Of a stretch of DNA of 64,000 bases, positions 1 through 53,766 are shown piece after piece. Each line of letters opens with the position of its first letter. Position 1 is the first letter of the stretch. The stretch is from Daphnia carinata. Taxonomy: Eukaryota. The translations under genes were made by a program, and so were the position numbers. Location: the NCBI RefSeq assembly GCF_022539665.2, contig NC_081332.1, positions 124,001 through 188,000 of the forward strand. Reading direction: 5' to 3'. The notes under the pieces are model-generated. The model was given only the letters and a program-made list of their open reading frames with translations. It ran no database searches and was not told the origin of the DNA.

Positions 1-298
1 AGACTGCGCTGCCCCAATCTTCAGCGAAGAGGTCGGCGTTAAGTCTTGTGGTGAGTATGTTGGTTTTCTCGTCGAGACGTCGCTCGTAGGTGCGATGGGC
101 CTGATCCCACGAGTCTTGGCTAGTCTGGTCTGGGGATTGAGTTGTTTGGTTGACCCCCTCGGCCGTGTTTTCTGCCATTGGTTCCCAAAACGAGTCAGCA
201 GTGGGCTCCGTTGTTGTCACCACTTCGTTAGCTTGCACCTCGTCACAAATCCCTTCGACGGTGACTTGTTCGTCTTGAACGGTCGTTTGCTTTTCCAT
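1..298 (-). CDS. Extra ORF3 downstream of pol, open past window start
   Basis: ATG at 298 and 99 stop-free codons to the edge (MEKQTTVQDEQVTVEGICDEV...NADLFAEDWGSAV). Not in the ORF track because it has no stop in the window. Confidence 0.6.
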   Translation of the reverse strand, partial: MEKQTTVQDEQVTVEGICDEVQANEVVTTTEPTADSFWEPMAENTAEGVNQTTQSPDQTSQDSWDQAHRTYERRLDEKTNILTTRLNADLFAEDWGSAV

Positions 299-488
299 CT
301 TTCTTTGATGATGCTTTACGATGTGTAAAGAGTCTTGTCAGAGTTGTTACTATAACGAGATGTCGGAAAGATGTGGCGCTCTTCGATCTACTCGCTGTTT
401 TATACTTTCGAGTTTTTTTGTTTTTTTGTTTTTTTGTTTTTTCTCTGAAAAGCGATCAACAGAATTGCATGCGGATGAGTTATCAGAT

Positions 489-1370
489 TTAATCTCTGAA
501 ACGCATTGGCAATTGTCTATTTCTTTGCGGGCGTCCGGTTGCGTTTTGTGGTATCGTTGTTGCTGATGGAACGACATCAGACGCTATCTGCTGCGTTTCA
601 TAATTATCCTTGGAATCATCTTCGGCAATTGGTGTGAGATTGAGGTGATTGCCAAATCCCAGCCTCGTTGTTTCTAACTCCACGGTGTCTGACACCATGT
701 CTTCAGTTTCCACTGTTTCGGATTCCATATTTTCCACATCCACGCTATCTGGATGCTCTTTTTCTGGTTCCACATTTCCTACTTCGCTTGTTTCTTGTTC
801 CAGTTGTTCCTCACTTTCCATTGTTTGGGTCGAGATCGATTTACGGAATCGATTCTCGAATGTTGAAGGCGACTCGATAGGGGGACAATGTTCATCTTTC
901 CATAACATTGTTTCATATAGGGGTTTTAAACGGTTAACGTGCGTACGTGTGCATATATATGAATTGTCGGCTATGTCGACAGTATTATTGGAATATACTT
1001 TTACAATTCTATAAGGGCCTTTATATTTGGAAGTAAATTTCCTACTATCGCCCTCTTTTACAAATCTAATATCTAATAAGACTCTATCTCCTACCAAATA
1101 TTGTTTTACTTTCGCCCTTTTATTATATTGCTCCCTTTGACGTTTTCTGGCTTTTTCGCTCTCCTCACGGACGCGTTGGAAACTATAGCGCAAGCGTTCG
1201 GCTAAGTTACCTACGTAATCCGATGCGGATATAAATGTTTTTGGGGAAGCGTCAAGAAATTCATTGATCGGTAAATTAGGGTCTCTACCGTGTAATAAGT
1301 AATAAGGGGTGTCCAGCGTAGAAGAATGGACAGAACTACGATAAGCAAACAAAACATCATCCATGTTCAC
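489..1370 (-). CDS. pol: Integrase C-terminal part (out of frame with upstream pol)
   Basis: VLFAYRSSVHSS, TPYYLLHGR, and KYKGPYRIV...HVNRLKP (GPY/F motif), separated from the pol ORF by a frameshift near 1357-1370. Confidence 0.9.
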   Translation of the reverse strand: MNMDDVLFAYRSSVHSSTLDTPYYLLHGRDPNLPINEFLDASPKTFISASDYVGNLAERLRYSFQRVREESEKARKRQREQYNKRAKVKQYLVGDRVLLDIRFVKEGDSRKFTSKYKGPYRIVKVYSNNTVDIADNSYICTRTHVNRLKPLYETMLWKDEHCPPIESPSTFENRFRKSISTQTMESEEQLEQETSEVGNVEPEKEHPDSVDVENMESETVETEDMVSDTVELETTRLGFGNHLNLTPIAEDDSKDNYETQQIASDVVPSATTIPQNATGRPQRNRQLPMRFRD

Positions 1371-4300
1371 CGTCTTTTAATTCTTTCCTCAACATTGTTG
1401 TTAATGTTCTATTGAACCTTTCGGTTTCTCCGTTACTAGCTGGATTATAAGAAGTCGTTAGTCGTTGATCAATTTTCAATTTTTTACAAAAGTAACGGAA
1501 TAATTTCGACGTGAAATTAGTTCCGCGGTCTGAAAGAATAGCTTTAGGCATACCGTGTCTAACTATTATTGTTTTGTACACACATTCTGCTGTTGTCTGC
1601 GCAGTCTGATCCTTTAAAGCAACAGCTTCTACCCATCGGCTAAAATAATCTGTGATAACTAAAATGTAACTGTTTCCATTGGGCGAAGCTGGTGTGATAG
1701 GGCCTAGAAAATCCATGCCTATAACTTGAAAAGGGGCCTTTGCAATTTCATGAGGATGCAATAATGCTCTGTAATTTGACGAAGTGTTGGCAATGCATAC
1801 CTCACAAGCTTGACAATATTCTTTTATGTCTTTCCTCATATTTGGCCAATAATAATGATTCTTTACTTTTAAATAGGTTTTATAAAAGGCTAAATGTCCA
1901 CTCATCGGTGCATCATGTAGTTCTTTGAGCACTAGATGACGTAACGATGTAGGTAAGACCAACTGATGGTGAGTTTCGTTTCTTTTGCTATCAGAAGATG
2001 GCAGCACGTGCCGGTAAAGCGTACCGTCAATAACTTCAAAATAATCAATTTCTTTTACCCAATCTGGCTTAGATTGGAGAAAATGTTCTTCAAGTTCACC
2101 GTTATCTAAATAATTTCGAATAGCTATGCAAAGTTCGTCTTCAAATTGTTTTTCACAAATTAATTTAATATTACGTTCGGTTTGGATACTAGCTATTTTT
2201 AAGCGTGACAAGCAATCTGCGTTTTGGTGAATACGTCCCGGTCTGTATTTTAATTCATAATTTGTTGCGGCTAACAGTATAGCCCATCTTCCTAATCTCC
2301 CATTGTTATCTTTCTGATTTTTAAGCCATTGAAGTGGACGATGATCACTAATGATCTCAAAAGGTTGGTCTAAAAGGTAATGTCGAAAATGCTTAATCGC
2401 ATCGATAACCGCAAGTGCCTCTTTTTCGGTCGTACTGTATTTAGCTTCTGCCTTCGTTAGCTGTCTACTGGAATACGCGATTGGGTGCTCGTGACCATTT
2501 TGAATTTGAGACAGTACCGCGCCAATGCCATAATCGCATGCATCGGTAAAAAGGAAAAATTTCTCGTTGAAATTGGGGTAAGCAAGCACTGGTGGAGTCA
2601 CTAAAGATGTACGCAATGTTTCGAAAGCACTATTTTCTTCGTTTCCCCAATTAAAAGGTTTTCTGCTAAGATCTTTATGGGTTAATCTGGTTAACGGTTT
2701 AGCGATTGATCCAAAATTTTTAATAAATCGTCTGTAATACCCAGCTAGACCCAGAAATGATCTGACTTCATCTACCGAAGCTGGCGTTTTATAATTAACT
2801 ATTTTCTCAATTTTATTCGGATCAGGTTTAATACCATCAGTCGAGATGACATGGCCTAAATAATTGACTGAACTTTTAATGAACTGGCATTTTTTAAGTT
2901 TTAATTTTAAATTGGCATTTTTTAATAACTCAAAGATTTCGCGAATATCGTTTAAGTGATCGTCAAAAGTGTCCGAAAAGATGATTACGTCATCCAAGTA
3001 AACTAACGCCTTACTTCCCAAAACGTCTTTCAGTACGTAATTCATTAGTCTTTGAAATGTCGCAGGTGCATTGCACAATCCAAATGCCATACGTTTAAAT
3101 TCATAAAGGTTATTTTCTACTACAAATGCTGTTTTTTCAATAGCCGGCTCATCAACTTGAATTTGCCAGTAACCTGAAGCTAAATCAAGAGTGGTGAAGA
3201 ATTTCTTCCCATACAGTTTGTCCAATGTTTCATCTATCCTCGGCATAGGGAATGAATCTTTTTTAGTAATACTATTCAATTTCCTATAGTCAACGCAAAA
3301 TCTTACTTCCCCACCCTTTTTTTCCACTAAAACCACAGGTGAAGCCCATGGCGAATGTGAATATTGGATCACATTAGCATCCAACATTTCCTGTACTTTA
3401 TCTTCCAATATTTTTCTTTGATTATTTGTAACTCGATAAGGGCGTTGTCGAATAGGGCCTCTTCCTTGTGTATCAATTGTATGTTTAATGAGATTAGTGT
3501 TCCCTAATTCTGAATCTTTTGCTGCGAACAAGTCGTGAAAGTCATTTAATAGTTTTGAGAGCGGAGCTTGAAATTCAGCGTCGACTTCTGAAATTAAAAC
3601 GGGCTCACTTTTAATAGTAGGCTTTTCTTCTAATTTACTTAAAGCAATTTTCCCAATTGCGTTGTGAATAATCTCAATTACGCCTAATGTAGTGTTCCTA
3701 GGAAGTATGACTTGATTTAACGAATGATTCTCGACCATAATTTTATATTTCCCATCTTTAGCTACGTTTCCAATGAATTCCTCAATAAAAATACCGTTCG
3801 GCAAATCCTCTGCTGGGGTAAACATAAATGTGGTATTAGGGGGGACATACGGAAATGAACCTTTCATTTGCGTTGCAATTACTAGCGAAGTCTGACGAAA
3901 TAACGTCGTCTTTTTGACCGTCGTAACTGCCATGTCTGGTACCCTAGAGATGGCTGATCCCTGCTCATCCCTTGCTAAATAAATACTTCTGGCTTCTCCG
4001 TCAAGCCGAAAACCGTGCTTCTGGATTGCATCCCATCCAAGGATACAGTCTTCAGAAACACCATTTGTAACAATAAACTCTTGTCTTAAAACTGACTCTC
4101 CGTATCGTACGGGCAATGTAACTCTTCCCAGCGTATGTAACTTTTTCTCCCCTACATCATACAAATCGAAATCAAGCTGACTGCAGATCGCCTGACCTCT
4201 CGGGGGTAACTTATGAAATATTCTCTCGTGAATAATGCTTTTAGACGCGCCTGTATCAAATAATGCTTGCAACGGTATCTGGAAAATTTTTAATGGAATT

Positions 4301-4410
4301 CTAGGGGTCGATTCATTTGTTATAGTTGTTAATTTTGCGACTTGTCGGGATTTTAACTGAGGCTCCCTATCAACTGACCCGAAGTTACAGTTGATATCTA
4401 TTGGTTTCCC
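1357..4410 (-). CDS. pol: Pol: aspartic protease, reverse transcriptase, RNase H, integrase (N-terminal part and core)
   Basis: LFDTGA; RFCVDYRKLN, LDLASGYWQ and YLDD; LFTDAC and IISDHRPL; H-H-C-C zinc finger; MDF, SDRG and ETERFN DDE motifs. Confidence 0.97.
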   Translation of the reverse strand, partial: GKPIDINCNFGSVDREPQLKSRQVAKLTTITNESTPRIPLKIFQIPLQALFDTGASKSIIHERIFHKLPPRGQAICSQLDFDLYDVGEKKLHTLGRVTLPVRYGESVLRQEFIVTNGVSEDCILGWDAIQKHGFRLDGEARSIYLARDEQGSAISRVPDMAVTTVKKTTLFRQTSLVIATQMKGSFPYVPPNTTFMFTPAEDLPNGIFIEEFIGNVAKDGKYKIMVENHSLNQVILPRNTTLGVIEIIHNAIGKIALSKLEEKPTIKSEPVLISEVDAEFQAPLSKLLNDFHDLFAAKDSELGNTNLIKHTIDTQGRGPIRQRPYRVTNNQRKILEDKVQEMLDANVIQYSHSPWASPVVLVEKKGGEVRFCVDYRKLNSITKKDSFPMPRIDETLDKLYGKKFFTTLDLASGYWQIQVDEPAIEKTAFVVENNLYEFKRMAFGLCNAPATFQRLMNYVLKDVLGSKALVYLDDVIIFSDTFDDHLNDIREIFELLKNANLKLKLKKCQFIKSSVNYLGHVISTDGIKPDPNKIEKIVNYKTPASVDEVRSFLGLAGYYRRFIKNFGSIAKPLTRLTHKDLSRKPFNWGNEENSAFETLRTSLVTPPVLAYPNFNEKFFLFTDACDYGIGAVLSQIQNGHEHPIAYSSRQLTKAEAKYSTTEKEALAVIDAIKHFRHYLLDQPFEIISDHRPLQWLKNQKDNNGRLGRWAILLAATNYELKYRPGRIHQNADCLSRLKIASIQTERNIKLICEKQFEDELCIAIRNYLDNGELEEHFLQSKPDWVKEIDYFEVIDGTLYRHVLPSSDSKRNETHHQLVLPTSLRHLVLKELHDAPMSGHLAFYKTYLKVKNHYYWPNMRKDIKEYCQACEVCIANTSSNYRALLHPHEIAKAPFQVIGMDFLGPITPASPNGNSYILVITDYFSRWVEAVALKDQTAQTTAECVYKTIIVRHGMPKAILSDRGTNFTSKLFRYFCKKLKIDQRLTTSYNPASNGETERFNRTLTTMLRKELKDGEHG
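4368..4410 (-). promoter_or_regulatory. -1 programmed ribosomal frameshift signal (gag to pol)
   Basis: Slippery heptamer G_GGA_AAC just before the gag TAG, 7-nt spacer, then a TATCAACTG/CAGTTGATA stem with C-UUCG-G in the loop. The -1 frame is open from here into the protease (GKPIDINCNFG...LFDTGA). Confidence 0.88.
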
Positions 4411-7193
4411 TGACGCTGAGGAGGACCTGGAATATTCGGTCTATCGGAGCTCCTGAACTTAGGACAGTTATTCGATTTGTGTCCGATTTCACGACAAGAA
4501 TAACAAATTGGAGGCTGTGCTTGTTCTAAATTATGCCGTTGGAATTTACGGCATTCCGATTGTGTATGCCCACGAAAACCGCAGAAATTGCAAGTTATTC
4601 CATTTTGTGGAGGTCTATTTCTCGAATCATTAAAAGGTCTCGAAAACGAAGGCGTGAACTGTGTAGGTCTATTGGAAAATCCCGGATTTTGGTAAGAATT
4701 GGTGTTATTATTGGGTCGATGAGGAGGAGGTCTCCAATTTCTGTCTTGATTGCCGCTATTGGTTTGGAACGAAACTTGTTTCTTATAAGGGTTGCCTGTT
4801 GGAGAAGAAGAATAATCTTTCTTGTCCATTTGTAGCTGTTTTACTGCTTGCGTGAGTTCATGAAGAACATCCCTAATGTCTTCCCTGTTTTCTTTCGGGC
4901 TTTCCACTTTTTTATTCCCCTGATTGATATTAGCAACGACATTATTGACTATTTCCTTCTGGTCGATTAACATTTGCTTGAGTTCCGTCAACTCCGAATG
5001 TTTCGTGTCACACGACCCATCGATTGCCCTAACGAATTCATGTTTTTCCCGATCTGTCTCTAAAGCTTCCAGACGAACGGCATAAATACGTGTTGACGCA
5101 ACAAGCTCGGTAAAGTTGCGAAATTCCTTATAACGAACTTTGGCCTGCAATTTGGAATCCAACCCCTCGATAAATTTTTGCATAAGGATGATTGTGAACG
5201 ATTTCTCAGCATAACCTTCTGGATACGCCTTCTTAAAAATCTCGTGCAAGCGGTGCGCATAGTCGACAATTTTTTCGCCTGGTTTACGTTTAGCCTTATT
5301 GAATTTTTTAATATAGACATCGACGTTTTCATCCCCATGGAAGTGATCAAATAAAGCTTCTTTAATAGCCGCATAATCATACGGATGTTGCCTTATAATG
5401 TTTTGGAGTACTGAAAAAGCCTTATCTGACATTTTAGCTCGCAGCATCTGAATAATCTTTTCTTCTGACCATGATGCCCCATCAACTATGCTTTCAAAAG
5501 ATTCTAGCCAAGAGTCGAAGCGAGAAATTGGACTTCCCGTAAAGGAAGGAAGCAATTGTAGGCGCGAAAAAGTGTGTTGGTTTGTCTGAAAGTCATTTAA
5601 GTCGTTGACTGTGGCTGCGCGTGAAGGGGAACAAGATTTGGCCATTTTGGGATCGAATATGGGAGGATTCAACGTCTTCCGCCTTGGATTCGGAGGGTGT
5701 CCTGAAATGCTGTTCGTAATCGCCTCAGTTGCGCTATCAGATCTTCCTGCTGGCTGGATTGCTGGGCTTGAGGAGGGTGTTGAGTGCGTGACTGGCTGGA
5801 AGGCCGATTTCTTTGGCGTGCTCGCCTTCTCCTCAGAATGCGTTCCGACAGCGGCGATTCCTGCGGACTCGGCGTGGTTTGCTGTTCTTCCTGGGTTCTC
5901 GGAATGTATGATAGCAACTGTCTCAATTCGTAGGTAGCCGGGATGAGTGTTTCCAAGATTTCCTTCGCTTTCCGCTGTCCGTCCGGTTGCACCGACGTCC
6001 GGAAGTTGTTGAATTTGGTCTGAAGCGATGTTAGTTCCGGCAATAATCCCTCCAAACTGCTTATGGACTGAACTTTTCTTAGGTAAGGGACCAGACGGAG
6101 GATGTCCTTGAGGAACTTCAGCTGGTACTCCCGCAGGGTGTCCTTTAGGTAGGTTGAGAACTGCGATATCTCGATTGCTAGACGGGAATATGTCTTGTCC
6201 TCGAGGTTGTTGAGCAAGCTTTCCTTGGGGGCAAAGTTGAAGAGGTACTTGTCCTTCGCCGGCGTGAATGTCAGCAACTCGACGATGTTGTAAGTCTGTC
6301 CTAGTAGGTAAATCGTAAACTCCCTCGCATAGGTTGTGAAGATTGCTGTCAACGTGGCCACTTGGTTCTCCGCAACCTGTGCCGTTGTCCTGGTTTGTCC
6401 AATTGCTATCGTTTCCAGAATTGTTCCCAAATCTTTCAGGAGTGTCTTCGGGTTTTTCAAATCCGTTGTCACGTTGGCTTGGTATTGGTACCGCAGCCGG
6501 ATTGTTTGCATCAACGATCGTAGTTGTTCCCAAATTAACGGATTGGTTGATTTGAAATCCAATTCCCTCTCCTTGAGGTACCTGAGCGTCAGTAGTAGGG
6601 ACGGTAACTGACTCGTTGGTGCCGGGAATATTCTCGATTGGTTGGTCGTGATCTCGTGGTATAGGTGATGGAGACTCACTTTGGGTTGACCGTCCATTCA
6701 CTGGGCTTTTCTTTTGGAAAAAGCTTAAAAGAGTGCTCGAGAGAAAACTGGTCTTTGATGTGTTTCCCACAGGTGATTTTATGGGAGAAAAACGAGACGC
6801 TAACCTTGCATAAACTGACGGTGCGGGCTGAGTAGGTGTAACGGAAGCTTTGCTACGGCCCCAAATTTTCTTAGTGGGAGTTTTAACTAATGGGGCTACG
6901 GCCTCATACGCGGTGTTAGACCTCAATTTCTTCAACTGGGTTTTATCTGTCTGTACTTTAGGAGTTAAAACGGGAGAGGTAGATGGTTTAATGGCTTCTG
7001 TCTCTTTATCTGAAATCTGACTGCCTTGAGATGACTGTGGAACGGTCGCGGTAGAAGCTGACAATTTTTCAAAACTAATCAATTTAGCAATCGTTTCGTC
7101 ATTGATTTGCACTACGGGTGTTACAGGAATAAGCGGAGTGTTCAAAGGTGTACGAGAAAGTTTATGCCCACCTGACATAACATCGTCCATCAT
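4398..7193 (-). CDS. gag: Gag polyprotein (long disordered N-terminus, capsid region, two CCHC zinc knuckles)
   Basis: 931-aa ORF. LPSFTGSPISRFDSWLESFE and KRKPGEKIVDYAHRL capsid-like motifs; CNFCGFRGHTQSEC and CYSCREIGHKSNNC knuckles. Confidence 0.93.
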   Translation of the reverse strand: MMDDVMSGGHKLSRTPLNTPLIPVTPVVQINDETIAKLISFEKLSASTATVPQSSQGSQISDKETEAIKPSTSPVLTPKVQTDKTQLKKLRSNTAYEAVAPLVKTPTKKIWGRSKASVTPTQPAPSVYARLASRFSPIKSPVGNTSKTSFLSSTLLSFFQKKSPVNGRSTQSESPSPIPRDHDQPIENIPGTNESVTVPTTDAQVPQGEGIGFQINQSVNLGTTTIVDANNPAAVPIPSQRDNGFEKPEDTPERFGNNSGNDSNWTNQDNGTGCGEPSGHVDSNLHNLCEGVYDLPTRTDLQHRRVADIHAGEGQVPLQLCPQGKLAQQPRGQDIFPSSNRDIAVLNLPKGHPAGVPAEVPQGHPPSGPLPKKSSVHKQFGGIIAGTNIASDQIQQLPDVGATGRTAESEGNLGNTHPGYLRIETVAIIHSENPGRTANHAESAGIAAVGTHSEEKASTPKKSAFQPVTHSTPSSSPAIQPAGRSDSATEAITNSISGHPPNPRRKTLNPPIFDPKMAKSCSPSRAATVNDLNDFQTNQHTFSRLQLLPSFTGSPISRFDSWLESFESIVDGASWSEEKIIQMLRAKMSDKAFSVLQNIIRQHPYDYAAIKEALFDHFHGDENVDVYIKKFNKAKRKPGEKIVDYAHRLHEIFKKAYPEGYAEKSFTIILMQKFIEGLDSKLQAKVRYKEFRNFTELVASTRIYAVRLEALETDREKHEFVRAIDGSCDTKHSELTELKQMLIDQKEIVNNVVANINQGNKKVESPKENREDIRDVLHELTQAVKQLQMDKKDYSSSPTGNPYKKQVSFQTNSGNQDRNWRPPPHRPNNNTNSYQNPGFSNRPTQFTPSFSRPFNDSRNRPPQNGITCNFCGFRGHTQSECRKFQRHNLEQAQPPICYSCREIGHKSNNCPKFRSSDRPNIPGPPQRQGNQ
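5669..6697 (-). CDS. Hypothetical 342-aa protein overprinted in the +1 frame of gag
   Basis: ATG-initiated, stop-free 1029-nt frame wholly inside gag; Leu/Ile-rich helical-looking body and Arg-rich C-terminus. Confidence 0.6.
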   Translation of the reverse strand: MDGQPKVSLHHLYHEITTNQSRIFPAPTSQLPSLLLTLRYLKERELDFKSTNPLIWEQLRSLMQTIRLRYQYQANVTTDLKNPKTLLKDLGTILETIAIGQTRTTAQVAENQVATLTAIFTTYAREFTIYLLGQTYNIVELLTFTPAKDKYLFNFAPKESLLNNLEDKTYSRLAIEISQFSTYLKDTLREYQLKFLKDILRLVPYLRKVQSISSLEGLLPELTSLQTKFNNFRTSVQPDGQRKAKEILETLIPATYELRQLLSYIPRTQEEQQTTPSPQESPLSERILRRRRARQRNRPSSQSRTQHPPQAQQSSQQEDLIAQLRRLRTAFQDTLRIQGGRR

Positions 7194-7213: not shown

Positions 7214-7224
7214 CGCTGCCACCA
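7214..7224 (-). promoter_or_regulatory. Primer binding site, tRNA-Leu type
   Basis: TGGTGGCAGCG is complementary to the 3' end ...CGCUGCCACCA of eukaryotic tRNA-Leu; lies 3 nt after the LTR CA. Confidence 0.8.
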
Positions 7225-7227
7225 TTA

Positions 7228-7994
7228 TGTAAAGCATCTTCCTCGTGGGAAGACTGACTTTACTGTATTAAGACAAAAGGAAATAATAACGAGCTCGGAG
7301 GCGTATTTCCCACAATGATGGATTTATTATCCCAGATTAAGCATACTACATTAAGCAAGAACATAAAGAGAAATAAAGATACCGTAGGGAAACTAAAGAG
7401 AGAAAGAGAGACAATTATAACCAAGTCTTACCGTGATCACACGAGTGGGTAGCGGAAAGATATCGACACGGAAGCGAACGAGATAACCTCACGCTCACGA
7501 AGTCAATTCACAATCAAATAGATTGAACAAGTGTTTAAGAAAAAGGACAAATGCACTGTCCAAGAATAACTAAGTTCGAACAGATGCAATTTAAAGCAAG
7601 TTAAGCAAATAAAGTTACACGAAAGAGTACAGTTTACTACGCAATACTATTAACCAAAAGATAAGAGCAACAAGAATAAATTCAGGCGACTACCTTACTC
7701 AGCTGCAAGTTCTTGTCTGATCTTTATCATATTTTGGGTTCACGATTACACTTCGCATATTGGCAAATTGGTGAGTTGCTGTGCGAGTATTTGCAACCAA
7801 TCAAAGATGTTTAAAATGGCGTGATAATGGTGCGATGATGGGCGCCAATCAAAGATGTTTTATAAGTGACGTGATGCTGATGACACATGGATGCGTCAGC
7901 TAGCTAGCAGGTGTTCATCTAGGTCACCCGTGTTGCGTATGTATATTGTTGCCATGGACATGTTTTATACTAATTACTTATTAAAGATACTACA
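7228..7994 (-). repeat. 5' LTR of the Gypsy element (~767 bp)
   Basis: Minus strand starts TGTAGTATCTT (7994) and ends AAGATGCTTTACA (7228): TG...CA with imperfect terminal inverted repeats. PBS follows after 3 nt. The partner LTR is outside the window, so the 7994 end is unconfirmed. Confidence 0.8.
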
Positions 7995-17385: not shown

Positions 17386-17683
17386 TCCGCTTACTTAGTT
17401 TTTTTTTTTAGATAATCAGGGGATAAATGTCAGGTTCCGTGCTAAGCTGGAGTTATATCCGGCGTTTTCTTAACATCTTAGATTTTTTAAATTAGTTAAA
17501 TAGATGATGAATTTGGTTGCCTTGAAGGGAAAAATTATTAATTCTAAGGTCACGTTTTTCCCTTTTGACGTTCTCGTTTGTCATTAGACGCGAAGCTCTA
17601 CATGGAGTACATGATATTCAGCTTTCGATTCGAAAGCATGTCGTTTTAAAAACTTTGATCGTCCCAGATTAGTTTGATTTCGA

Positions 17684-19025
17684 CAACATGGTCTCACTAC
17701 ATATGTACTAAGTAGTACATAGTTGCAGATGCACTTTTTCTTATGGGGTAAATGATAAACGCGCAGGGCGTTAGTCAATTATTTTTTTTTAAATTTTGTC
17801 TGCTTGGAGCTTTTCCACGCGGAAGTCGCGATAAAACGTGATTTTCCATGCGGAATGTGGAAAAAGACACCTAAAATTGTAAATTAAATGAGAACCCATG
17901 AAATAAACATATTTAAATTATCTTAGTTAATTTTTAATACAAGACGGAATGCTGAAATTTTCTAGACACAAAAAAAATGTAAATATGTACTTATAATTAA
18001 AATTTTTTACACTTATTTACACTTTTTAAAATTTGAACTTGGCGCGGTAAAAAAATGGCCGCCATAATGGTTTATCGAAAACCACTTTTTCAAACGTAAT
18101 TTTTGGGGTTAATATAGCATCTTAAAAGTAAACGTTTAGAATAACTTGTTCCTCGAATCACCAGGAACAAAAATATTATAATGGTTTCCTGTTTTGACGA
18201 AGATTAAGCATCAAACAATCAATGCAAAGTTTCATCTTTTTCACACACCCCCTCCCCTTTCTAAAATCATGAAATCCTTTAACAATTATTTATAAAGAAA
18301 ATAAACAGTTAAAATTGACAAATTTTGCATCAATCGATAGCTCTTATCAAGAGCTATCTAATTCTATAAAACTTATGTTAAATTTTCAGAAAAGGAAAAA
18401 GTTTAAGTGTAACATCAATTTTTTGTTTTTATCGGTTGCGTCCATTAGAACCTTAGATCGAAAAACAACAAAAACGCATTTTGCGTTTAAGATATTTCGA
18501 TTTGAAAATATTGATTACAATTACCTAAAAATGGACAGCCCTTACCAAGGGCTATCGATTTATATTATATTTATATTATTTATATATTAAATCAGCGAAT
18601 ATCATAATTAATTTTGCTGACAAATAATTAAAAAATTGTTCCTCTTATATTCGCTTATTTCAATTACCATAACTATTGTACATATATCTAATAGTAATAT
18701 ATATATTGTAATTGTATGTATGTATAAATATATAAATATAATTGTAATATACTGTATATATGTGTATTTATTATATTGTAGTATTTATGTACATTATCAT
18801 AATATTGTAAATATAAATTTATATAAACCTAATTCATATTATTCACTTTGAAAAAATTAAGACATGCGCTGCACGCATTTTTGTTTAACTGGTTTAACTT
18901 TAACGGTTTAACCATTAAAGCAACCAAATCAAAGCCCTAGGGGTGACAACACACACTTTCCCCATAAAGAAAACTGCAGGCGCGATTATGTACTAAGTAG
19001 TACATATTGCCTCGCGACCAGCCTG
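17684..19025. mobile_element. Non-autonomous DNA transposon, copy A (8-bp TSD; hAT/P-like)
   Basis: Ends CAACATGGTC and GACCAGCCTG; imperfect ~68-bp TIRs containing TATGTACT-N4-AGTACATA; perfect TSD GATTTCGA at 17676-17683 and 19026-19033. Confidence 0.92.
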
Positions 19026-41257: not shown

Positions 41258-43664
41258 CAACATGGTCTCAGTACATATGTAAGGCTCAGCCCCGATCGTC
41301 TTTGATCGGGGCAAACCGCGGTTTTTCATTTAAAAATCGTCAAACCGTCGGTTCGGTTTGGTTTTCGGTTTGCAACTGGGCCAAACCGGTTTGAACCGCC
41401 ATTAAATTTTTTTTTTTAATTTTGCTAAAATTCCAAATCAAATAACTATCACTAATTGTTGTGAGCGTAATGGCGGTCAGCAACTTGTTATAAATCAAAT
41501 TTCCGATCAGATTTGTAGGCATCACGATCGAAAATCAGTCGATCTTTCCGCCATCTAGCGACAAAATTTGCTACTGATGATTGTCTGTGCAAACCGCAAA
41601 TCCACGGTGCAAACCGTAAAACCGCGGTGCAAACCGTGCAAAACCGCAGTTTACACCGCGGGTACAAACTGCAGATACAAACCGTCAAACCGCGCACAAG
41701 GCGTTATTCAATTGTTTTTTGGTATGCTGTCTGCTTGTAATTTTTCCGCGCGGAGGGCGCGATAAAATGTAGTTATCCACGCGGAAGGCGCGTGGACTTC
41801 CGTTTAACTTATCTTAGTTAATTACTGCGATTTTCTATCTAAGACGGATATTAAAACTCCCTAGCTGCAAACAAAATTTAAATACCAATAATTAATAAAT
41901 ATTTAATTTTTGGACGGTGTATGGGAGGAGGGGAAACTACGAAAAAATCGACAACTTTGGGCCCTTCGTTTAGGCATTCTTTGGGCTTATGATATGTTAT
42001 TAAGGTATTATCTCGATTCCTTGTTTCACGAGGAATGTTTTCGTGGGTATTAAACAACAAAATTTATCAAATTAGTTAACGAAATACTAAGTTACAAACA
42101 ACCAATCACAATTGAGAAAACGGGTGCCATTATTTTTAGGCGCAATTTTTAAATTTTCTATTATTACCAGCGTAAATAAAATTTCAAAACAGTTTTACGA
42201 TTCTATATTTACCTTATTGTATAGGCTTATTGTTATAATAATACAAAAAAAAGAAAATTTTTCATTCGGTTTATTTTCATATTCAAATATTTACAGTCTT
42301 ACATTATTATTACAACTACTTACATTATCACGGTTCACCGGATACAAAAAAATCGCTTACCGTCGAGTCCAAGGGGTTGTCGTAAAAGATGTCAGTGTTG
42401 ATATCAAGAACGTTTTACGATTTTTGATTAGTAATTTTGTGATTTGAAAATTGAATTATTTTGAAAATTAAAATCGATGCAGACGACACGCAGACGGCAC
42501 AAGCAGACGACACATCAACAGCTTGCTTTCTTTCAGCGGTGGTTGCCACTGGCATCAGAGCTGGAGAGCCAATCAAAACGCAAGAATGGGGGTGCCGCTG
42601 GGAACCCGAACGGTCGAGTCAACTTGCGGAGACCATGTTGAATTTTTTACACCTACTTACAATTTGAACTTGGCGCGGTAAGAAAATGGCCGCCATAATG
42701 GTTTGTCAAAAACCACTTTTTCAAGCGTAATTTTTGGGGTTAAATGTAGCATCTGAAAATCAATCGTTTATAACAACTTGTTCCTGGAATATCCCAGCAA
42801 CAAAAATATTATAATGATTTCATATTTTGACGAAGATTAAGCATCAAACGATCACTGCAAAGTTTCGTCTTTTTCACACACCCCCTACCCTTTCTAAAAT
42901 CATAAAAGCCTTTAATAATTATTTACGAGGAAAATAAACAGTCAAAATTGACAAATTTTGCATCAATCGATAGCTCTTTTCAACAGCTATCTACTTCTAT
43001 AAAATGTATGTTAAATTTTCAGAAAAGGGAAAAGTTTAAGCGTAATATCTATTATTTTTTGTTTTTATCAGTTGCGTCCATTACAACCTTAGATGAAAAA
43101 ACAACAAAAACACATTTTGCCTTTAAGTTTTTTTCTATTTGAAAATGTTGATTATAATTACCTAAAAATGGATAGCTTTTACCAGGGGCTATCGATTTAT
43201 ATTATATTAATATTATTTATATACTTAATCAGCGAATATCGTAATTAATTTTGCTGACAAATAATTAAAAATTTGTTTCTCTAATATTCGTTTATTTCAA
43301 TTACTATAACTATTGTACTTATATATAATAGTAATATATATATTATAATTCTATGTATGTATAAATATATATATATATAATTGTAATATACTGTATATAT
43401 GTGTATTTATTATATTGTAGTATTTATATACATTATCATAGTATTGTAAATATAAATTTATATAAAACGAATTCATATTATTCGCTTCGAAAAAATTAAG
43501 ACATGCGCTACACGCATTTTTGTTTAACTGAATTAACTTTAACGGTTTAACCATTAAAGCAACCAAATCAAAGCCCTAGGGGTGACAACACACACTTTCC
43601 CCATAAAGAAAACTGCAGGCGCGATTATGTACTAAATAGTACATACTGGCTTGCGACCAGCCTG
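41258..43664. mobile_element. Copy B of the 17684-19025 element, with internal insertions
   Basis: Left end CAACATGGTCTC at 41258; homology resumes at ~41695-41880 and ~42641-43664; right end GACCAGCCTG. Confidence 0.85.
41282..41697. repeat. AAACCG-rich MITE-like insertion inside copy B
   Basis: Dense AAACCG/CGGTTT motifs and a perfect GCCCCGATC/GATCGGGGC hairpin; absent from copy A. Confidence 0.6.
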
Positions 43665-45046
43665 GTTGTCGCCACTAGGGCTTTGATTTGGTTGCTTTAG
43701 TGGTTAAACCGCTAAAGTTAAACCAGTTAAACAATAATGCGTGTAGCGCATGTCTTTTAAATTTTTTCGAAGCGAATAATGTGAATCCGGTTGATGTAAA
43801 TTTTTCCAATGAGGTAATATGTATAACAAATACTAATATATATGTTACAATTATATATAGATATTTATATAAATTACTATTATGTATATACGATACTATT
43901 ATATGTATACAATACTGTAATATATATTATAGTACATACACGATATATATATAATATATATATATATTGTACTTACGTACAATTGGTGTGATAATTGAAA
44001 TAAAAGAATATAAGAGAAACCATTTTTTAATTATTTGTCAGCTAAATTAATTACAATAATTAGTTGATTAATTACAGTAAATAGACCTTGGTAAGGGCTA
44101 TCTATTTCTGGGTAATTGTTATCAACATTTTGAAAGGGAAAAAATCTCAAAGGCAAAATGTGTTTTTGTTGTTTTTCGATCTAAGGTTTCTCTGTTTTTA
44201 TCAGTTCGTCCATTAGAACATGGACAAAAAATAGATGTTACGCTTAAACTTTTTCCTTTTCTGAAAATTTAACATAAATTTCATAGAACTAGATAGTTCT
44301 TGATAAGAGCTATCAATTGATGCAAAATTTTTTAATTTTGACTGTTTATTTTCCTCATAAATAATTATTAAAGGATTTCATGATTTTAGAAAGGGGAGGG
44401 GTGTGTGAAAAAGACGAAATTTTGCATTGAACGTTTGATGCTTAATCTTCGTCAAAACAGGAAATCATTATAATATTTTTGTTGCTGGTAATTCCAGAAC
44501 AAGTTGTTATAAACGATTACTTTTAAGTTGCTATATTCAACCCCAAAAATTACGTTTGAAAAAGTGGTTTTTGATAAACCATTATGGCGGGCATTTTCTT
44601 ACCGCGCCAAGTTCAAATTTTAAAAAGTGTAAAAAATTGTAATAATAAGTACATATTTACATTTTGTTTGTGTTTAGAGAATTTCAATATCCGTCTTAGA
44701 TAAGAAATTTTAAAAATTAACTAAGATAAGCTAAACAAATTTATTTCATGGGTTCTCATTTAATTTGCAATTTTAGGGGTCTTTTTCCACATTTCCGCGT
44801 GGAAAACTACGTTTTATCGCGACGTCCACATGGAAAAACTCCAAGCAGACAATATTCCCAAAAAACAATTGACTAACGCCCTGCGCGTTTATCATTTAGC
44901 CCATAAGAAAAAGTGCATCTGCAACTATGTGCTACTTAGTACACATGTAGTGAGACCATGTTGGCGACAACACACACTCTCTCCATATAGAAAACTGTAG
45001 GCGCGATTATGTACTAAGTAGTACATATTGCCTCGCGACCAGCCTG
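43665..45046. mobile_element. Copy C of the same element; body inverted relative to its own right terminus
   Basis: 43665-44963 is the reverse complement of the copy A body, ending CCATGTTG; 44964-45046 is the forward right-terminal segment. Confidence 0.88.
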
Positions 45047-45625
45047 AAAGAACCTCACTGCCGGCGATGAACAGAGACCAATTTTTGACACAAATTACGT
45101 AAACAAGCCGCAATAATGGTGGGAAAACGTAATTGTCACTGACGAAAAATCATTTGGGTATTATTTTTAAACGTTATGTAGCATATAGTCTTCAATGCCT
45201 AAATTAATTATAATTAAAACGAGGTGAATGCGGCCGTATAACGTCACTAGTAGAACGAACACCACTTGTTTCGACGCAAATCATAGGAATATTAAAAATG
45301 AAGGCGGAAGAAGGGCAGCGCCCGTTTGGGCATGGCTTTCATTTAGCGGTGTCGGGGAATTTTCTGAATTAAAGAAAAGTTCAACAACGAAAAATATTTG
45401 TAGATTCCTGGGACGTTCTGCTTCCTTCCATTCATGTAAAATTTCCCGGGAGGCGCAAAAATGTTTTTCACGGTAGGCCGCTAATTTATCGGTCCGAAAT
45501 AAACCAGCTAATTGGATTTGGGAGAGTTATCGCGAGGAACCTATTATTGGCAAAAAGTCACAAATTGTATGATTGAAAGATTGCAAATTGTAATGGAAAA
45601 TAATGGTTATTTAACCAAGCATTGA
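45047..45625 (+). pseudogene. Degenerate Tc1-like transposase (second copy)
   Basis: WWENVIVTDEKSFG, FDANH...PVWAWLSFSGVGE and MIERLQIVMENNGYLTK; similar to 10205-13405. Confidence 0.75.
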
Positions 45626-48163
45626 TAAAATATTAAATTAATTTACTGTAGCGTGTAATTTTCAGTTATTTCGTGCTTTTTACAAATTCAATATTGATGT
45701 TTCATTTTCATTTGCATTTAGAAACGAAACATTTCAAAAAGGAAACTTTTAAAAAGAAAATAAATTATTTTGTAGGGTAAACGAGCGAATTGGGACACAG
45801 GCCCGGTTTCTGCTAATTTGGGACAAAAAACATACATTTCGTCGCTTCACGAATGGTATACTGATAGGGGTTCTATTGGAACATGAATCTTAGCTCAAGA
45901 AGGGTATAGCTAGGCCTCGTCTTGTGATCCCAATGCGGTATGAATATTCAGATCACAGTTGCTCAACAATGGTATATTTGCCACGAAAAGGTGTACCTTT
46001 AATTTACAATAACGTTAGATGAATGACGATAAGGCAATCTCAAGATATTACCTTGGTTGACCAAAGACTATGTTGGCCACCTCGGCTTCGACAACCAAAG
46101 GCAAAATATACGGTGATCTGGGCAACGTGTCTACATTCACCAAGGATAAATTTAAGGATAAACACATAAGCAACAGCAAACATCTCAAAGTGTCTAAGAG
46201 AGCTTAATTACCTGAAGAACAGCTTGATCGTAACAATAGGGAACAATGACTGACAGGACATGTGGTTTAATCAGACGACGAAACTGAACGTTAAAGCGGA
46301 ACATAGACAATAAAGGTCTACCAACTGCTTAGTGAGAAAGAGAAAATGGACAAAGTATACTTGCGCCGCCAAGCGGCAGATTCTTTATGCTATCGCTGAG
46401 TTTCTTCGTCAATCCAGAACATCTTATAGGCGAATTATAAACTAAAAGAGGGGTTACGCAATTTATCAAAAGGACAAAATTTAAAACATAACAATATCCG
46501 AGAAAACGGTAATTGAAATCTATGCGTTTTGCTTGCGGGCGAAAAACCTAAACAGCGTACGATTTGTTAGCTGACACCTGGACGGCACAGAAAATTTCTG
46601 AGGTAAAATTGAAGAAACCCATTAAATAATTATATCAAACAGTAGAGCAAGTTAAGTTCTACAGATTAAGTACAAGTCTGTCCCATTAAATGCTAGTCTT
46701 ATTCCAATATTACAAACCAGAAAAAAACCATTCCTGCTAATTTGGGACAGCCGACGCTAATTTAGGACACAGATATTTTCGAAAAAAACAAAACCATTTT
46801 TTTCCAATATTTTTACATCAATCGACGCAGAATTCAAAAATAAATCGATTGATGTAATATTTATACGTTTTTTGCATCATTTTCATAGAAATAACGCAAA
46901 AATACTTTAGGGACTTTAGGGAATCTAGTCTGGGTTCATCCACGCAGCTTTTAAAAAAAATTAATTTACATCCTTTCACTTTTTTTTTCGTAACTTCAAA
47001 GCCAATAAACTTTTTAGATTTTTAAAGGTAATTTCGTATTTTTTATTTCATTTTACCAGCTACTAAACGAGATATTTTTCGGAATCTGTTGTCCCTTATT
47101 GGGACACAAGTTTATTTGTAGTTTTTTTCAGAAATTTCAGTGGTTTTTCATGCTTTTCATGTTCCTTTTACTTGTCGTAGAAGAAATTTGTTAATAAGTC
47201 ATTGGTTTTAAGTAAAAATAAAAAAAAACTGTTTTGTTGTACTCGTCATAGCCCCATTTGACTGTGCTTTAAGCGAAAGCGCTAATTCTGGACACTGTTT
47301 TCGAAGCGCATGGGGTGGCGGTAATTTTCTTTTATCTTACGAGTTGGCACAGTGGATGAATGCCTGGATGGTAAGAAGGAGGTCTGAGGTTCAGTTCTCA
47401 GTAGCTAAATATAATCTTGTGTTTAGTTAATACATTAGATGTATTTAGGTACGATAGACGATGTCTGCCTATCATGTCTAATAAAATCCCCAAAAAGTAA
47501 TATTTTTGTCTGCATTTTGGGGTAACATTTAAATAGTATTTATAAATAGAATGAAATAAAAACTTTCATTAACAATTTGGTAGCTCAGATGTAAAGCATT
47601 AGCCTCATGATATTATGGACTGCAGTTCAATCCCAGATAGAAGTTAAAACTGAATAATTATTTTGCATAACGCTAGAAAACTACCATACAGCAGTAAACA
47701 AATAATGACGAAGAAAAAAATCCACAATGAGTTTTCTTTTTTCTGCAGTTTTTCTTACAAACCGCGATTCAACAATATCGCACGAAATGTGAAAAAATCA
47801 AGAATGATGTAAAACAACAACGTAAAACAACAACAGCCATGTAGGGAAAATTTATACGAATCTATTAATCGCAATATTTGTTGATATTGCGTTAGTTAAA
47901 GATGTCTTAAGTGATTACAAAATATCTCACAAATAGGGAAAAATTGCAAATCGAGTTAACTGAACTTTACATGTTGTGCACTGTCGGTATAGAACCATAC
48001 AATTTGGTGTTAGTAATCCAACGTTTTATCACTAGGCCATAGTTAATAAGTAATTTTTGAAAAGCATAATATGTCACTTAGTATGTAGTCTGCTGTCCCA
48101 AATTAGCGTCACGGGGGCTTATGTAAAAAACATAAGAATTGCAATGACCTATGAGATTAATAT

Positions 48164-49644
48164 TGTAACGAAATTAAAAGTATTAGTTTGGTTAACTAGG
48201 AAATAAAAAGTAAAACTAGAAATAAAAAGTCATTTGAAGGTTGCCCTAAGCCCTTGGGAGTAGTCGGGTTATAGACGAATATCCGGAAATGGAAATGGAT
48301 CCTGGGAATGATGCAAGATTGTCGTCGATCTTGCATCAGTGAATCGTGGGTTTCGCGTTGATGGAAGAGAGTTTTATAAAATGGTAGGACGAGAAATTAA
48401 AAGGGGGATTCTGGTTTGAGTTGGTCGGTCGGTGCAACGTTAGTTTTGGTGATGGTCGGTGTTTGTGCGGGCGGTGTTGGTTTTAGAGAGAGAAGTTAGA
48501 GAGATACAGAGAGAGTAGGAATCGAGTTTAGTTTTTAGTTTTTTTCGTGGAGTGACAATTTATGCTTGTTTGGACAGTGTTGGTTTTTTGTGAGTTTGAG
48601 TGTTAGTGTGTAGTGATTCTTTTGTTTTCGATAGTCCCACACAGCACACTGCTGTTTCTTAGTTGACCATTTTTGGTCCTCACTGGACCACTAGGACGTC
48701 CATAAGACGCGGTGAAATTCTTAAATGACGTGTTTTGGCTGCCTCCTGCACATCTAGATGTCCGGCAGAACGGAGCCCGAGTGCGTCTTTTACCAGCCGT
48801 CCACAATGAGTTAAGGCGGTGAACTGGACCACTTTTGGACCGATTAATAATATAGTTTTAAAAAATGTGGCTGTGGCTGCTATCGAACACGGGTCTCCCG
48901 CATCATGGTCGGACGCGCTTTCCACTAGACCACTCTATACTTATGAATTTCATTATTTTCAAACAATACAATAGAAACATAGGAAAATACTCAAATTTTT
49001 TTTCGACAACAGGTCACAAAATTTTTTTCTCAAACATAAAGTTAAAGTCGAAATTAAGTTAGACCCTCGATCCTTCAAAAGTAATTAAACAAATTAGGCT
49101 GAATTTTTGTAGATTTTGAAACTTTCTAAATTTTTAAGAAAATGAATTATTTGAGATAATATTTTTATGCTAAATAAAATATATTTTTCTAACTTCCTCA
49201 TTTCAATGAAATTCACAGTATCAATTTACTTACCCGTTTAGTTGTAAAGTATAAAGTTTAAACATTCTACGTTTGAATTACATGTATGTCAAAACTGGCA
49301 ACACAGGATTTGACCAAATGTGGGACTAAAGAAGTCAAGAACAGATATATTGATTTCCTAGGCAACAAACGTGGCTAACGTACATCTATTTTCGCGCCTA
49401 TATCAGGCCCGTCCTGGTTGTCCTAGTGGGACGGATTAAGGATGACTTCTGGCTTTCAATTCTTGTGTGGGGTGGAGACGCCCGGTGGCCTGACGTGTTA
49501 GACTTCGGATCTGTATTAAATTAATTTCAGACCGAAGAATAACCATTGAGTCTATCCGGTGGCCTAAAACACGCTTCAATCCCGTTACAAACAAAGAAAA
49601 AGATCCCCGGCGTATTGTGGGCTTGCGTCCAAGCGCGCGTTACA
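48164..49644. mobile_element. Solo LTR (Gypsy-like, ~643 bp net) inserted in the tandem array
   Basis: TGTAACG...CGTTACA termini; 4-bp TSD ATAT (48160-48163 and 49645-49648); the array unit rejoins when it is removed. Confidence 0.85.
48636..49471. mobile_element. CCC-terminal non-autonomous DNA transposon inside the solo LTR
   Basis: CCCACACA...TGTGTGGG ends with 2-bp TSD GT; interior homologous (inverted) to ~59400-59760. Confidence 0.65.
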
Positions 49645-52600: not shown

Positions 52601-53766
52601 CAAAATAAGATAAAAAATTACAAATAATAAATAAATATTTGCACATGAGCCCCAATTGGTATTAAACCACCAACCTTTGAGTTGGTACTCTGACACCTTA
52701 CGACTATGCCACTGTTGATTGATAATGGAAACACAACCTACCTACGTTATTTAGTTTATCGTTAAAAGTCTGATGTCCCAAATTAGTGCCATGGGAGCTT
52801 ATGTATAAAATATGAAAATTGGCATCACAGGTTAGATGAATATTGAAAGCTGGCTAAGGTTTAAAAATTGATGGGCACAACTACGAAATCGCCTAATGAT
52901 AAACGGTTGCATTGGTGAGCGAAATTCATTTTGCGATTTTAAGTATTGTAGTATTGTAGTTCATTTTACAAGTAAAAAATTTTTGCGTTTTAGTTTATTC
53001 ATCCGTGTGCTGATAAGATATCAGAAAACAGCAGACAGCGAGGCAATTAATTTTATGGTTGGCCACGTAGCATTGTCGCTTTTTAAAAATGATTTTGCAC
53101 TTGCTATCAGACAGAAATTTCCTTGTCTACTTTCCTAGTCTCCATAAGGGCTTGGTTCCGCGTGATTGGGACGTTTTTTTTTATCTCTTGGATCATTTCG
53201 GGTTTTGGGTTGCTGCGAGCTGTTACGGACAGCAATTTTTTTTTTGCCTCCGTGCCTCATTGGATTTCAATCTGGCTGATAGGGGAGTCAACCCGAAAGC
53301 AAGCAATCAATTAGTTTAACGAAAAAAATTTCTATTGTCGTTTTTTTCTAAAACAATCCATTGTCGATAAACCAAGCAGACATTTCTTTTTAATGTGACG
53401 TCGCTTAAACTGTAGTTTAAGAAACAAACCCAATACCGTATCCATCGCATCCCGTGGCAAAACTTATACATCCATCAGTCCCGGTATTAGTATAGATTAC
53501 TACGTCATTTTTCAGTGAGTGGTCGAAACACAGCTAATCGGAGTCGAACCCCAGTGTCAAGTATAATGAGAAGAAAAGAAAGAAGAAAAACAAAATAATT
53601 GGCTCTAAGCGAATGTCAATTATCAGTGGCAGCTGGAAAAAAACTAGTCCATCGAAACATTTGATTTTACTGTGATTCAAACACATATGATTATGATGTA
53701 TAACTACATGATTCAAAACTGTTATTTTTGTTGTTTATTGCTGTTTAGGTTTGATTGCCGAAAAAA

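What the first reader, a model, noticed from the sequence alone, without database searches (positions are those of the whole stretch)
5669..6697. 342-aa protein overprinted inside Gypsy gag
Seen: two reading frames stay open on the same strand for 1029 nt. The gag frame here is P/S/T/Q/G-rich and looks like a disordered spacer. The +1 frame starts with ATG (G at -3 and +4) and reads like a folded amphipathic helical protein. It ends in a basic tail with SP motifs (TPSPQESPLSERILRRRRARQRNRPSSQSR) and stops shortly before the capsid region. Established: canonical Ty3/Gypsy elements encode gag, pol and sometimes env, not a fully nested gene. Inference: this is an accessory protein, possibly nucleic-acid binding or nuclear. 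The helical body plus Arg/SP tail loosely recalls hepadnaviral core architecture, which is an analogy only. Several upstream ATGs make leaky scanning unlikely. A splice from an LTR donor (CG|GTAAGA, ~7431) to pyrimidine-rich AG sites at ~6700-6725 is a possible route.
Basis: partly seen in the sequence, partly recalled or inferred. Interest (0 to 1): 0.85.

Follow-up and report, generated by a model that had tools for sequence, protein, structure and literature searches.

The report
Hidden second gene inside retrotransposon gag
A lineage of water-flea (Daphnia-type) Gypsy retrotransposons keeps a second, roughly 340-codon reading frame entirely inside its gag gene and conserves that frame's protein more than Gag itself there, so it likely encodes an overlooked accessory protein, predicted to fold into a helical bundle and possibly used to handle the element's own RNA as Rev does for HIV.

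Summary
Window 5669-6697 (minus strand) is a 342-codon +1 frame nested in the 931-codon gag of a Ty3/Gypsy element. Neither frame's openness is chance (0-1 of 20,000 simulations).

The protein has 19 relatives at 28-50% identity, all Daphnia where named. In 3 of 3 related loci with DNA, both frames are open across the overlap. Between distant elements the nested frame is conserved (24-33% identity) and the gag frame barely (13-18%). In one close pair dN/dS is 0.35 nested versus 0.96 gag. Gag keeps conserved motifs upstream, so it likely reads through as a spacer, and one sister subfamily has lost the module in frame. The alignment-based model is a confident helical bundle (pLDDT 80) with an Arg-rich tail in most but not all families. 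It has no Pfam family and no clear fold match.

No RNA or peptide evidence was obtainable, so translation, the splice route and function are inferred. The best functional reading is a Rev/CERV-like factor made from a subgenomic RNA (about 0.4). Errors in the first read: position -3 is T, not G, and the donor aligned across relatives is 7382, not 7431. No support was found for the hepadnaviral-core analogy.

The parts
5669..6697 (-). Nested +1-frame gene, 342 aa (P0001)
   Evidence: 19 relatives at 28-50% identity; dN/dS 0.35 in the L001/L002 pair
5903..6697 (-). Predicted helical-bundle core, residues 1-265, the conserved part of the family
   Evidence: AF2 with an 18-sequence alignment: pLDDT mostly 85-96 over residues 1-270, pTM 0.71; conserved columns
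5798..5842 (-). Arg-rich segment (residues 286-300) in a disordered tail, with three SP motifs just upstream
   Evidence: 8 Arg in 15 residues, P=0.003 given the gag protein and pol codon usage, 0.035 with uniform codons; similar segments in P0004, P0006, P0011, P0012, P0018, L001, L003 but not P0045/P0047
5690..5761 (-). C-terminal amphipathic helix, residues 313-336
   Evidence: similar ends in P0006, P0011, P0012
4398..7193 (-). gag, 931 aa: 165-aa N-terminal segment, about 345-aa spacer that carries the nested gene, capsid-like region, CCHC knuckle
   Evidence: PNMA E 1e-5, zf-CCHC E 4e-5, Retrotrans_gag E 0.003
6698..7193 (-). Gag N-terminal segment with conserved motifs (RTP, LRSNxxY, ARxxSRxSP); 163-176 aa in 6 of 7 gags compared (99 aa in P0050)
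   Evidence: N-terminal segment z 10-18 against distant families where the overlap segment gives z 1.5-2
5004..5621 (-). Gag capsid-like region (residues 525-730), beginning about 17 codons after the nested stop
4404..4410 (-). G_GGA_AAC heptamer at the gag/pol overlap, likely -1 frameshift site
   Evidence: Sequence shown; function inferred from the known X_XXY_YYZ pattern
1357..4440 (-). pol: protease, RT, RNase H, integrase in Ty3/Gypsy order; the frame ends inside integrase in this copy
   Evidence: best PDB sequence hit is Ty3-G Gag-Pol, E 1e-112
489..1376 (-). C-terminal part of integrase in another frame; this copy is broken here
   Evidence: Integrase_p58_C and SH3_Tf2-1, weak
7214..7224 (-). 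Primer-binding-site-like TGGTGGCAGCG after the likely LTR end (TTACA); gag ATG 30-31 nt later
   Evidence: Identical in 4 of 4 elements; the match to a tRNA-Leu 3' end is recalled, not tested
7426..7434 (-).
   Evidence: Present; not aligned to a donor in L001/L002
7377..7385 (-). Donor-like ACG|GTATCT, 158 nt before the PBS, aligned to ACG|GTATGT 154 nt before the PBS in L001 and L002
   Evidence: L003 does not reach this region; a weak donor in the window copy
6700..6750 (-). Candidate acceptors (pyrimidine runs ending in AG) before the nested ATG
   Evidence: candidates exist in all 4 elements but at different offsets

Best explanation
This Gypsy lineage holds two open frames over about 1 kb of gag, and the +1 frame likely encodes a folded accessory protein that would be made from a separate subgenomic RNA and would most likely act like Rev or CERV, binding the element's unspliced genomic RNA through its Arg-rich tail and helping it leave the nucleus. 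Shown by calls: both frames are open in 4 of 4 elements with DNA; amino-acid constraint falls on the +1 frame while the gag frame only avoids stops; Gag has conserved motifs on both sides of the overlap; a sister subfamily lacks the module in frame. Inferred: full-length RNA makes the long Gag (and Gag-Pol by a -1 shift), with the overlap as a disposable disordered spacer; the nested protein starts at its own conserved ATG on an RNA lacking the gag start, made by splicing from an LTR donor (which would also drop the primer-binding site) or by an internal promoter. Odds by step: real selected protein-coding gene about 0.93; subgenomic RNA rather than leaky scanning or frameshift about 0.7; Rev/CERV-like RNA handling about 0.4.
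For: Openness beyond chance in each element: probability of no stop 1e-5 to 1e-9 for +1 and 1e-9 to 1e-18 for the gag frame. On the same codons, 5 distant pairs give nested identity 24-33% against gag 13-18%, and nucleotide identity follows the nested codon positions 2>1>3. Each frame aligned on its own gives z 21-51 nested against 0-6.5 gag. L001/L002 over 227 codons: dN/dS 0.35 (bootstrap 0.22-0.55) nested and 0.96 (0.57-1.66) gag; changes silent in the nested frame but replacing in gag number 44 against 23-29 expected. From the gag side, 21 of 30 gag hits carry a stretch whose +1 frame fits a known nested protein (scores 31-141, reversed controls 12 or less). Met at the equivalent start in 11 of 15 rows; gag reads [ND]G there in all 7 gags compared. 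Model pLDDT 80. The gag ATG has A at -3 in 4 of 4, with 2-8 further ATGs before the nested one. Arg clusters exceed what gag forces in W and L001. Precedent: CERV, from a spliced RNA with an alternative-frame exon over gag, is needed for Cer1 genomic RNA export (PMC10309623, sections 9 and 15).
Against: No RNA, ribosome or peptide data. No single donor/acceptor pair is conserved: the window's aligned donor is weak (GTATCT), acceptor offsets differ, and Ser/Pro codons give pyrimidine runs anyway. The Arg tail is not significant in L003 (P=0.21) and is missing from the P0045/P0047 family, which keeps the core. The conserved part is the 265-aa core, much larger than Rev and unlike CERV's described domains (no Cys loop; P0001 has no Cys). 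P0069/P0070 gags lack the module, so it is dispensable in cis. dN/dS rests on one mosaic pair (97% identity in the LTR, 77-90% in the overlap). The three loci were fetched by a nested-frame motif, so nested conservation in them is partly ascertainment; L001 and L002 are cut by contig ends and each has a frameshift upstream in gag.
Confidence: 0.4

Rival explanations
1. The nested protein is a host-defence antagonist: its helical bundle binds a host protein (silencing, piRNA or JAK/STAT component) and the basic tail is only a nuclear-localisation signal.
For: The core, not the tail, is what all families keep. Residues 108-269 match STAT1/3/5 coiled-coil domains best among natural proteins (Z 10.0-10.9, rmsd 2.5-3.2 for most rows, 134-156 aligned). 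A trans-acting factor fits the survival of a subfamily without it.
Against: Designed helical repeats score as high (Z 11.3), and the tool warns that Z under about 13 for helical bundles can be a common arrangement; identity 6-13%; no Foldseek hit at E<=0.001 and no STAT Pfam match in 18 members.
Confidence: 0.22
2. The nested protein is a particle component or Gag-binding regulator (packaging aid or copy-number control), the reading closest to the first reader's core-like analogy and to Ty1 p22.
For: A helical body plus Arg/SP tail suits RNA packaging. The subfamily without the module also lacks the Gag LRSNxxY motif, a single coincidence. Ty1 makes p22 from a subgenomic RNA starting within gag (PMC4599808 and PMC8458377, listing abstracts only).
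Against: Gag has its own capsid region and CCHC knuckle. No capsid or hepadnaviral core appears among fold or Pfam rows. p22 is in frame with Gag, unlike this protein.
Confidence: 0.2
3. The nested domain works fused to the capsid region: a frameshift near its end gives an alternative Gag with a folded N-terminal domain.
For: P0034 (850 aa) joins the nested frame to Gag capsid at a Lys-Lys position.
Against: It is 1 of the 15 listed members of a 25-member cluster; four 424-aa members (P0012, P0026, P0028, P0037) end at their own stop. The nested frame has a conserved C-terminal helix and stop in W, P0006, P0011 and P0012. A single-base indel explains P0034.
Confidence: 0.07
4. The +1 frame is a by-product of gag codon choice and is not translated.
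For: No expression data; gene callers and annotators mostly report only gag.
Against: Constraint sits on the +1 frame, not gag; the frame stays open across elements 40-49% identical in the Gag C-terminal half; the alignment yields a confident fold.
Confidence: 0.03

Closest known systems
CERV of C. elegans Cer1 (Ty3/Gypsy); PMC10309623, PMC3315495
   Same: Accessory protein of a Gypsy element, partly encoded over gag with one exon in another frame, from a subgenomic spliced RNA, lineage-restricted; a Ser-Pro phosphosite regulates it.
   Different: CERV is a five-exon product sharing peptides with Gag and ending in a post-pol ORF, with a Cys-loop and a G-protein-like domain. Here one uninterrupted 342-codon frame with its own start and stop sits wholly in gag and is all-helical. 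Homology was not tested (no CERV sequence fetched).
HIV-1 Rev and other complex-retrovirus export factors (as described in PMC10309623; Arg-motif detail recalled)
   Same: Arg-rich segment, Leu-rich helices, overlap with a structural gene, likely subgenomic RNA.
   Different: Rev is about a third of the size and overlaps env, not gag (recalled); no response element or export signal was shown here.
sORF1/sORF2 of Drosophila MDG1-group elements (bioRxiv 10.1101/2025.03.14.642691)
   Same: Conserved accessory ORFs near the 5' end of Gypsy-type elements, shown to be translated; sORF1 is nuclear and has its own short transcript.
   Different: They are 60-130 aa, lie upstream of gag without overlap, and sORF2 is a transmembrane fusogen. 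P0001 has no membrane-length hydrophobic stretch (maximum 19-residue hydropathy 0.93).
Ty1 p22/p18 (PMC4599808, PMC8458377; listing abstracts only)
   Same: Second product from a subgenomic RNA that begins inside gag.
   Different: In frame with Gag, identical to its C-terminal half; Ty1/copia group.
Plant LTR-retrotransposon additional ORFs (PMC7264820)
   Same: Conserved extra ORFs of unknown function, proposed to act like retroviral accessory proteins.
   Different: [quoted passage not shown]
STAT coiled-coil domain (1yvl, 6njs, 7uc7)
   Same: Best natural structural match for residues 108-269 (Z 10-10.9, rmsd 2.5-3.1, 141-151 aligned for these three).
   Different: 6-12% identity, inside the range the tool flags as generic for helical bundles; no sequence support.

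Membership tests
Ty3/Gypsy LTR retrotransposon (host element) | pol order PR-RT-RH-INT with Ty3-like RT | tested here: met
   domain order; best PDB hit Ty3-G Gag-Pol E 1e-112
Ty3/Gypsy LTR retrotransposon (host element) | gag with capsid-like region and CCHC knuckle | tested here: met
   PNMA and zf-CCHC at or above cut-off, Retrotrans_gag below
Ty3/Gypsy LTR retrotransposon (host element) | Paired LTRs and a primer-binding site | tested here: inconclusive
   PBS-like motif conserved in 4 of 4; the 3' end runs off the window and no LTR pair was found
Overlapping (dual-coding) gene | Both frames open in diverged relatives beyond chance | tested here: met
   4 of 4 elements with DNA
Overlapping (dual-coding) gene | Purifying selection in the second frame | tested here: met
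   dN/dS 0.35 against 0.96 in one pair; frame-specific conservation in 5 distant pairs
Overlapping (dual-coding) gene | Translation of the second frame | not testable with these tools
   No sequencing run was listed; no proteomics tool
Rev/CERV-like export factor | Made from a spliced or other subgenomic RNA | tested here: inconclusive
   Donor- and acceptor-like sites exist but no conserved pair
Rev/CERV-like export factor | Arg-rich RNA-binding/nuclear-import motif | tested here: inconclusive
   Enriched in W and L001, not in L003; absent in P0045/P0047
Rev/CERV-like export factor | Oligomerises on genomic RNA and is needed for its export | not testable with these tools
CERV family proper | Sequence or domain homology (H, M Cys-loop, G domains) | tested here: not met
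   P0001 has no Cys and the model has no beta-strands, so it lacks the Cys-loop and G-protein-like domains described in PMC10309623; no direct sequence comparison was run
Hepadnaviral core protein | Core fold or sequence family | tested here: inconclusive
   Not among Pfam matches of 18 members or listed fold rows; absence from a list does not exclude it
sORF2/FAST or Env-like fusogen | Transmembrane helix | tested here: not met
   Maximum 19-residue hydropathy 0.93 in P0001; above 1.6 in only 3 of 21 aligned members, with no shared position
STAT coiled-coil domain | Structural plus sequence homology | tested here: inconclusive
   Z 10-10.9 at 6-13% identity; no Pfam or PDB profile hit

The most novel reading that the evidence does not exclude
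A Gypsy lineage became 'complex' by overprinting: a new 265-residue helical fold arose in the +1 frame of a Gag linker, took over the sequence constraint, and left Gag carrying a 350-residue neutral spacer only to house it; the protein acts in trans, so subfamilies that delete it ride on their relatives. The gag frame's codon usage is closer to pol than the nested frame's in 3 of 3 elements, which weakly favours gag as the older frame.
Probability: 0.3. Interest if true: 0.85.

Novelty: new variant of a known kind. Interest (0 to 1): 0.72.

Why it matters
Accessory genes in LTR retrotransposons are few, and recently characterised ones (CERV, sORF2) changed views of how these elements export RNA and move between cells. 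This is an unnamed protein family with a confident predicted fold, hidden from annotation because it lies wholly inside gag, and present across several Daphnia element families. Daphnia has genomes, RNA-seq and genetics, so translation, route and function can be tested directly. It also gives a clean case in which the nested frame has taken over constraint from the host gene, and suggests that other long disordered Gag N-termini should be screened in the +1 frame.

Tried and rejected
No whole genome is held for the window. Sequencing runs: none was listed, so no RNA holder could be examined. The single-sequence fold was poor (pLDDT 41) and was replaced by the alignment-based model. ESM Atlas gave no usable hit for P0001, with a recognition score of 1639, below the level of most known families; a second query with a relative did not complete. 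The nested-motif pattern found nothing in viral or prokaryotic collections. Pfam on 18 members gave only scattered sub-threshold rows; the PDB profile search gave nothing below E 0.6; Foldseek gave no match at E<=0.001 in PDB or BFVD. Hepadnaviral core and retroviral capsids were not among listed fold rows, which does not exclude them. Complex prediction (homodimer) was not available, so self-association is untested. Leaky scanning was rejected as the main route (strong gag start, 2-8 intervening ATGs). A +1 ribosomal frameshift from Gag is not needed: a stop precedes a conserved ATG in the window. The upstream 'segment A' and 'A+B' dN/dS values used a wrong frame and are not used; the corrected counts are too few (4 differences in 67 codons) to judge suppression of synonymous change against flanks, and the pair is mosaic. 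In the tree 11 of 34 gags with under 150 aligned capsid residues were left out, and labels were my own.
Full report
**The element.** The finding lies in a minus-strand Ty3/Gypsy element: gag 7193-4398 (931 aa), pol 4440-1357 with protease, RT, RNase H and integrase, and an integrase tail in another frame at 1376-489, so this copy is broken in integrase. The best solved relative of pol is Ty3-G Gag-Pol. A PBS-like TGGTGGCAGCG at 7224-7214 and the gag start context are shared by 4 of 4 elements examined. The 3' LTR is outside the window. The named hits among 30 gag hits are all Daphnia (25 named, magna or sinensis; the others ENA, Logan or otherwise unnamed in the listing), with about 73% identity over the capsid half, so the host is likely a Daphnia-type cladoceran (inference).

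**The observation.** A 342-codon frame at 6697-5669 sits in +1 inside gag. Holding the gag protein fixed, 8.7 stops are expected in +1 and none of 20,000 trials was open. Holding the nested protein fixed, 21 stops are expected in gag and none of 20,000 was open. Stricter permutations of the region's own codons gave 0 and 1 of 20,000.

**Relatives.** A full phmmer search gave 19 proteins at E<=0.001, 28-50% identical; a profile search added 4. Named ones are uncharacterised D. magna proteins, some of them chimeras of the two frames. Met stands at the equivalent start in 11 of 15 rows that cover it. A degenerate motif scan of metagenome contigs returned 3 loci. In 3 of 3 the gag frame has no stop across the nested gene, while the third frame has 20-40. 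L003 holds a complete 1,019-aa gag, a 352-aa nested gene and pol. L001 and L002 are cut by contig ends and each has a frameshift upstream in gag. These loci were found through the nested frame, so gag openness is their unbiased result. The reverse test came from the gag side: of 30 gag hits, 21 contain a stretch whose +1 frame fits a known nested protein (scores 31-141; reversed-query controls 12 or less). Of the other 9, five start at or inside the capsid region, one has an unrelated N-terminus, one (P0058) shows only a weak profile signal (35 against controls up to 22), and two lack the module. This test shows that the same DNA holds both proteins; it cannot count stops.

**Which frame is selected.** On the same codons, the 5 distant pairs share 24-33% of residues in the nested frame and 13-18% in gag, and nucleotide identity ranks nested positions 2>1>3. 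That alignment was guided by the nested protein, so each frame was also aligned alone: z 21-51 nested against 0-6.5 gag. In the one close pair (227 codons), dN/dS is 0.35 (0.22-0.55) nested and 0.96 (0.57-1.66) gag. Gag first positions differ more than third positions (48 against 28, P=0.03), the reverse of the gag-only stretch just upstream (4, 5, 9), and changes silent in the nested frame number 44 against 23-29 expected. The pair is mosaic, so suppression relative to flanks could not be judged.

**Gag still reads through.** The segment before the nested ATG is 163-176 aa in 6 of 7 gags and keeps shared motifs; it is more conserved between distant families than the overlap. Two gag clusters (P0069, 31 members; P0070, 8 members) join this segment to the capsid region with about 370 fewer residues and show no nested signal. 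They branch beside module-bearing P0066 (support 80/90, not starred), which suggests a derived in-frame loss. So the overlap is a disposable spacer for Gag and the nested gene is not required in cis.

**The protein.** With an 18-sequence alignment AlphaFold2 gives pLDDT 80 and pTM 0.71: helices over residues 4-264, a disordered tail, and a last helix at 313-336. There is no Pfam family, PDB sequence relative or Foldseek match. The wide structural search ranks designed helical repeats first (Z 11.3) and STAT coiled-coil domains as the best natural match for residues 108-269 (Z 10-10.9), within the range flagged as generic. The Arg cluster is beyond what gag forces in the window (P=0.003; 0.035 with uniform codons) and L001 (0.0007; 0.008), not in L003 (0.21; 0.45), and the P0045/P0047 family lacks it. 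No transmembrane stretch is shared.

**Expression route (inferred).** The gag ATG has A at -3 in 4 of 4, and 2-8 ATGs intervene, so leaky scanning is unlikely. Donor-like sites lie upstream of the PBS in the 3 elements that reach that region. Acceptor-like AGs lie within 100 nt of the nested ATG in all 4, at different offsets. Splicing or an internal promoter would each give a subgenomic RNA; the data do not choose between them. No run was listed to test this.

**Function (inferred).** The closest precedent is CERV of Cer1: a spliced product with one exon in another frame over gag, nuclear, and required for genomic RNA export (PMC10309623: abstract, sections 9 and 15 in full, passages; PMC3315495: passages). 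An element that uses an LTR donor must export RNA with an intron, and an Arg-rich, Leu-rich protein fits that need. I put this at about 0.4, against a host-defence antagonist (0.22), a particle or Gag-binding factor (0.2), a frameshift fusion (0.07) and a by-product (0.03). It is not a CERV family member on the features tested.

**Novelty.** Nine full-text searches listed no description of a gene nested in Daphnia Gypsy gag; I saw only listings for most papers. In the D. pulex LTR survey (PMC2996953) I read 12 of 24 matched passages and saw no mention. I read passages of the MDG1 sORF preprint (10.1101/2025.03.14.642691) and the plant additional-ORF review (PMC7264820). No supplements were opened, and Repbase and Dfam could not be searched; either may already note the ORF. 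An earlier scan note (e1-7571867) reports a similar arrangement in a fungal Gypsy element; it is unchecked and is a lead only. Verdict: a real and well-supported nested gene, a new protein family, a new variant of a known kind (accessory gene of an LTR retrotransposon), with route and function still inferred. Interest 0.72.

Noticed in passing
window 2-337 (minus strand): A further open frame starts after the integrase tail and runs off the window edge (acidic, 99 aa from its ATG). It sits where a third ORF or env would; no Pfam match.
   Followed up: partly
window about 1357-1376: pol changes frame inside integrase, so this copy is defective while gag and the nested gene are intact.
   Followed up: partly
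proteins P0069, P0070: Gag clusters lacking the whole overlap module in frame and also lacking the LRSNxxY motif; candidates for non-autonomous derivatives.
   Followed up: partly
protein P0034: Nested frame fused to Gag capsid in one cluster member; probably a single-base indel.
   Followed up: partly
L001 versus L002: Identity drops from 94-99% in the LTR and gag start to 77-90% from about L002 position 630, suggesting recombination between subfamilies.
   Followed up: no
L003 1700-1900: A run of 11-residue repeats (LKPTIP-type) in Gag between the nested stop and the capsid region.
   Followed up: no
window 47830-52850: Diverged tandem array of about 359-nt units with a conserved 79-nt core.
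   Followed up: no
window 17670-19025 and 42640-45050: AT-rich repeat present as direct and inverted copies about 90% alike, MITE-like.
   Followed up: no
D. magna records P0005, P0014, P0019, P0023, P0053: Public annotations join stretches of both frames into single predicted proteins, which hides the nested gene.
   Followed up: partly
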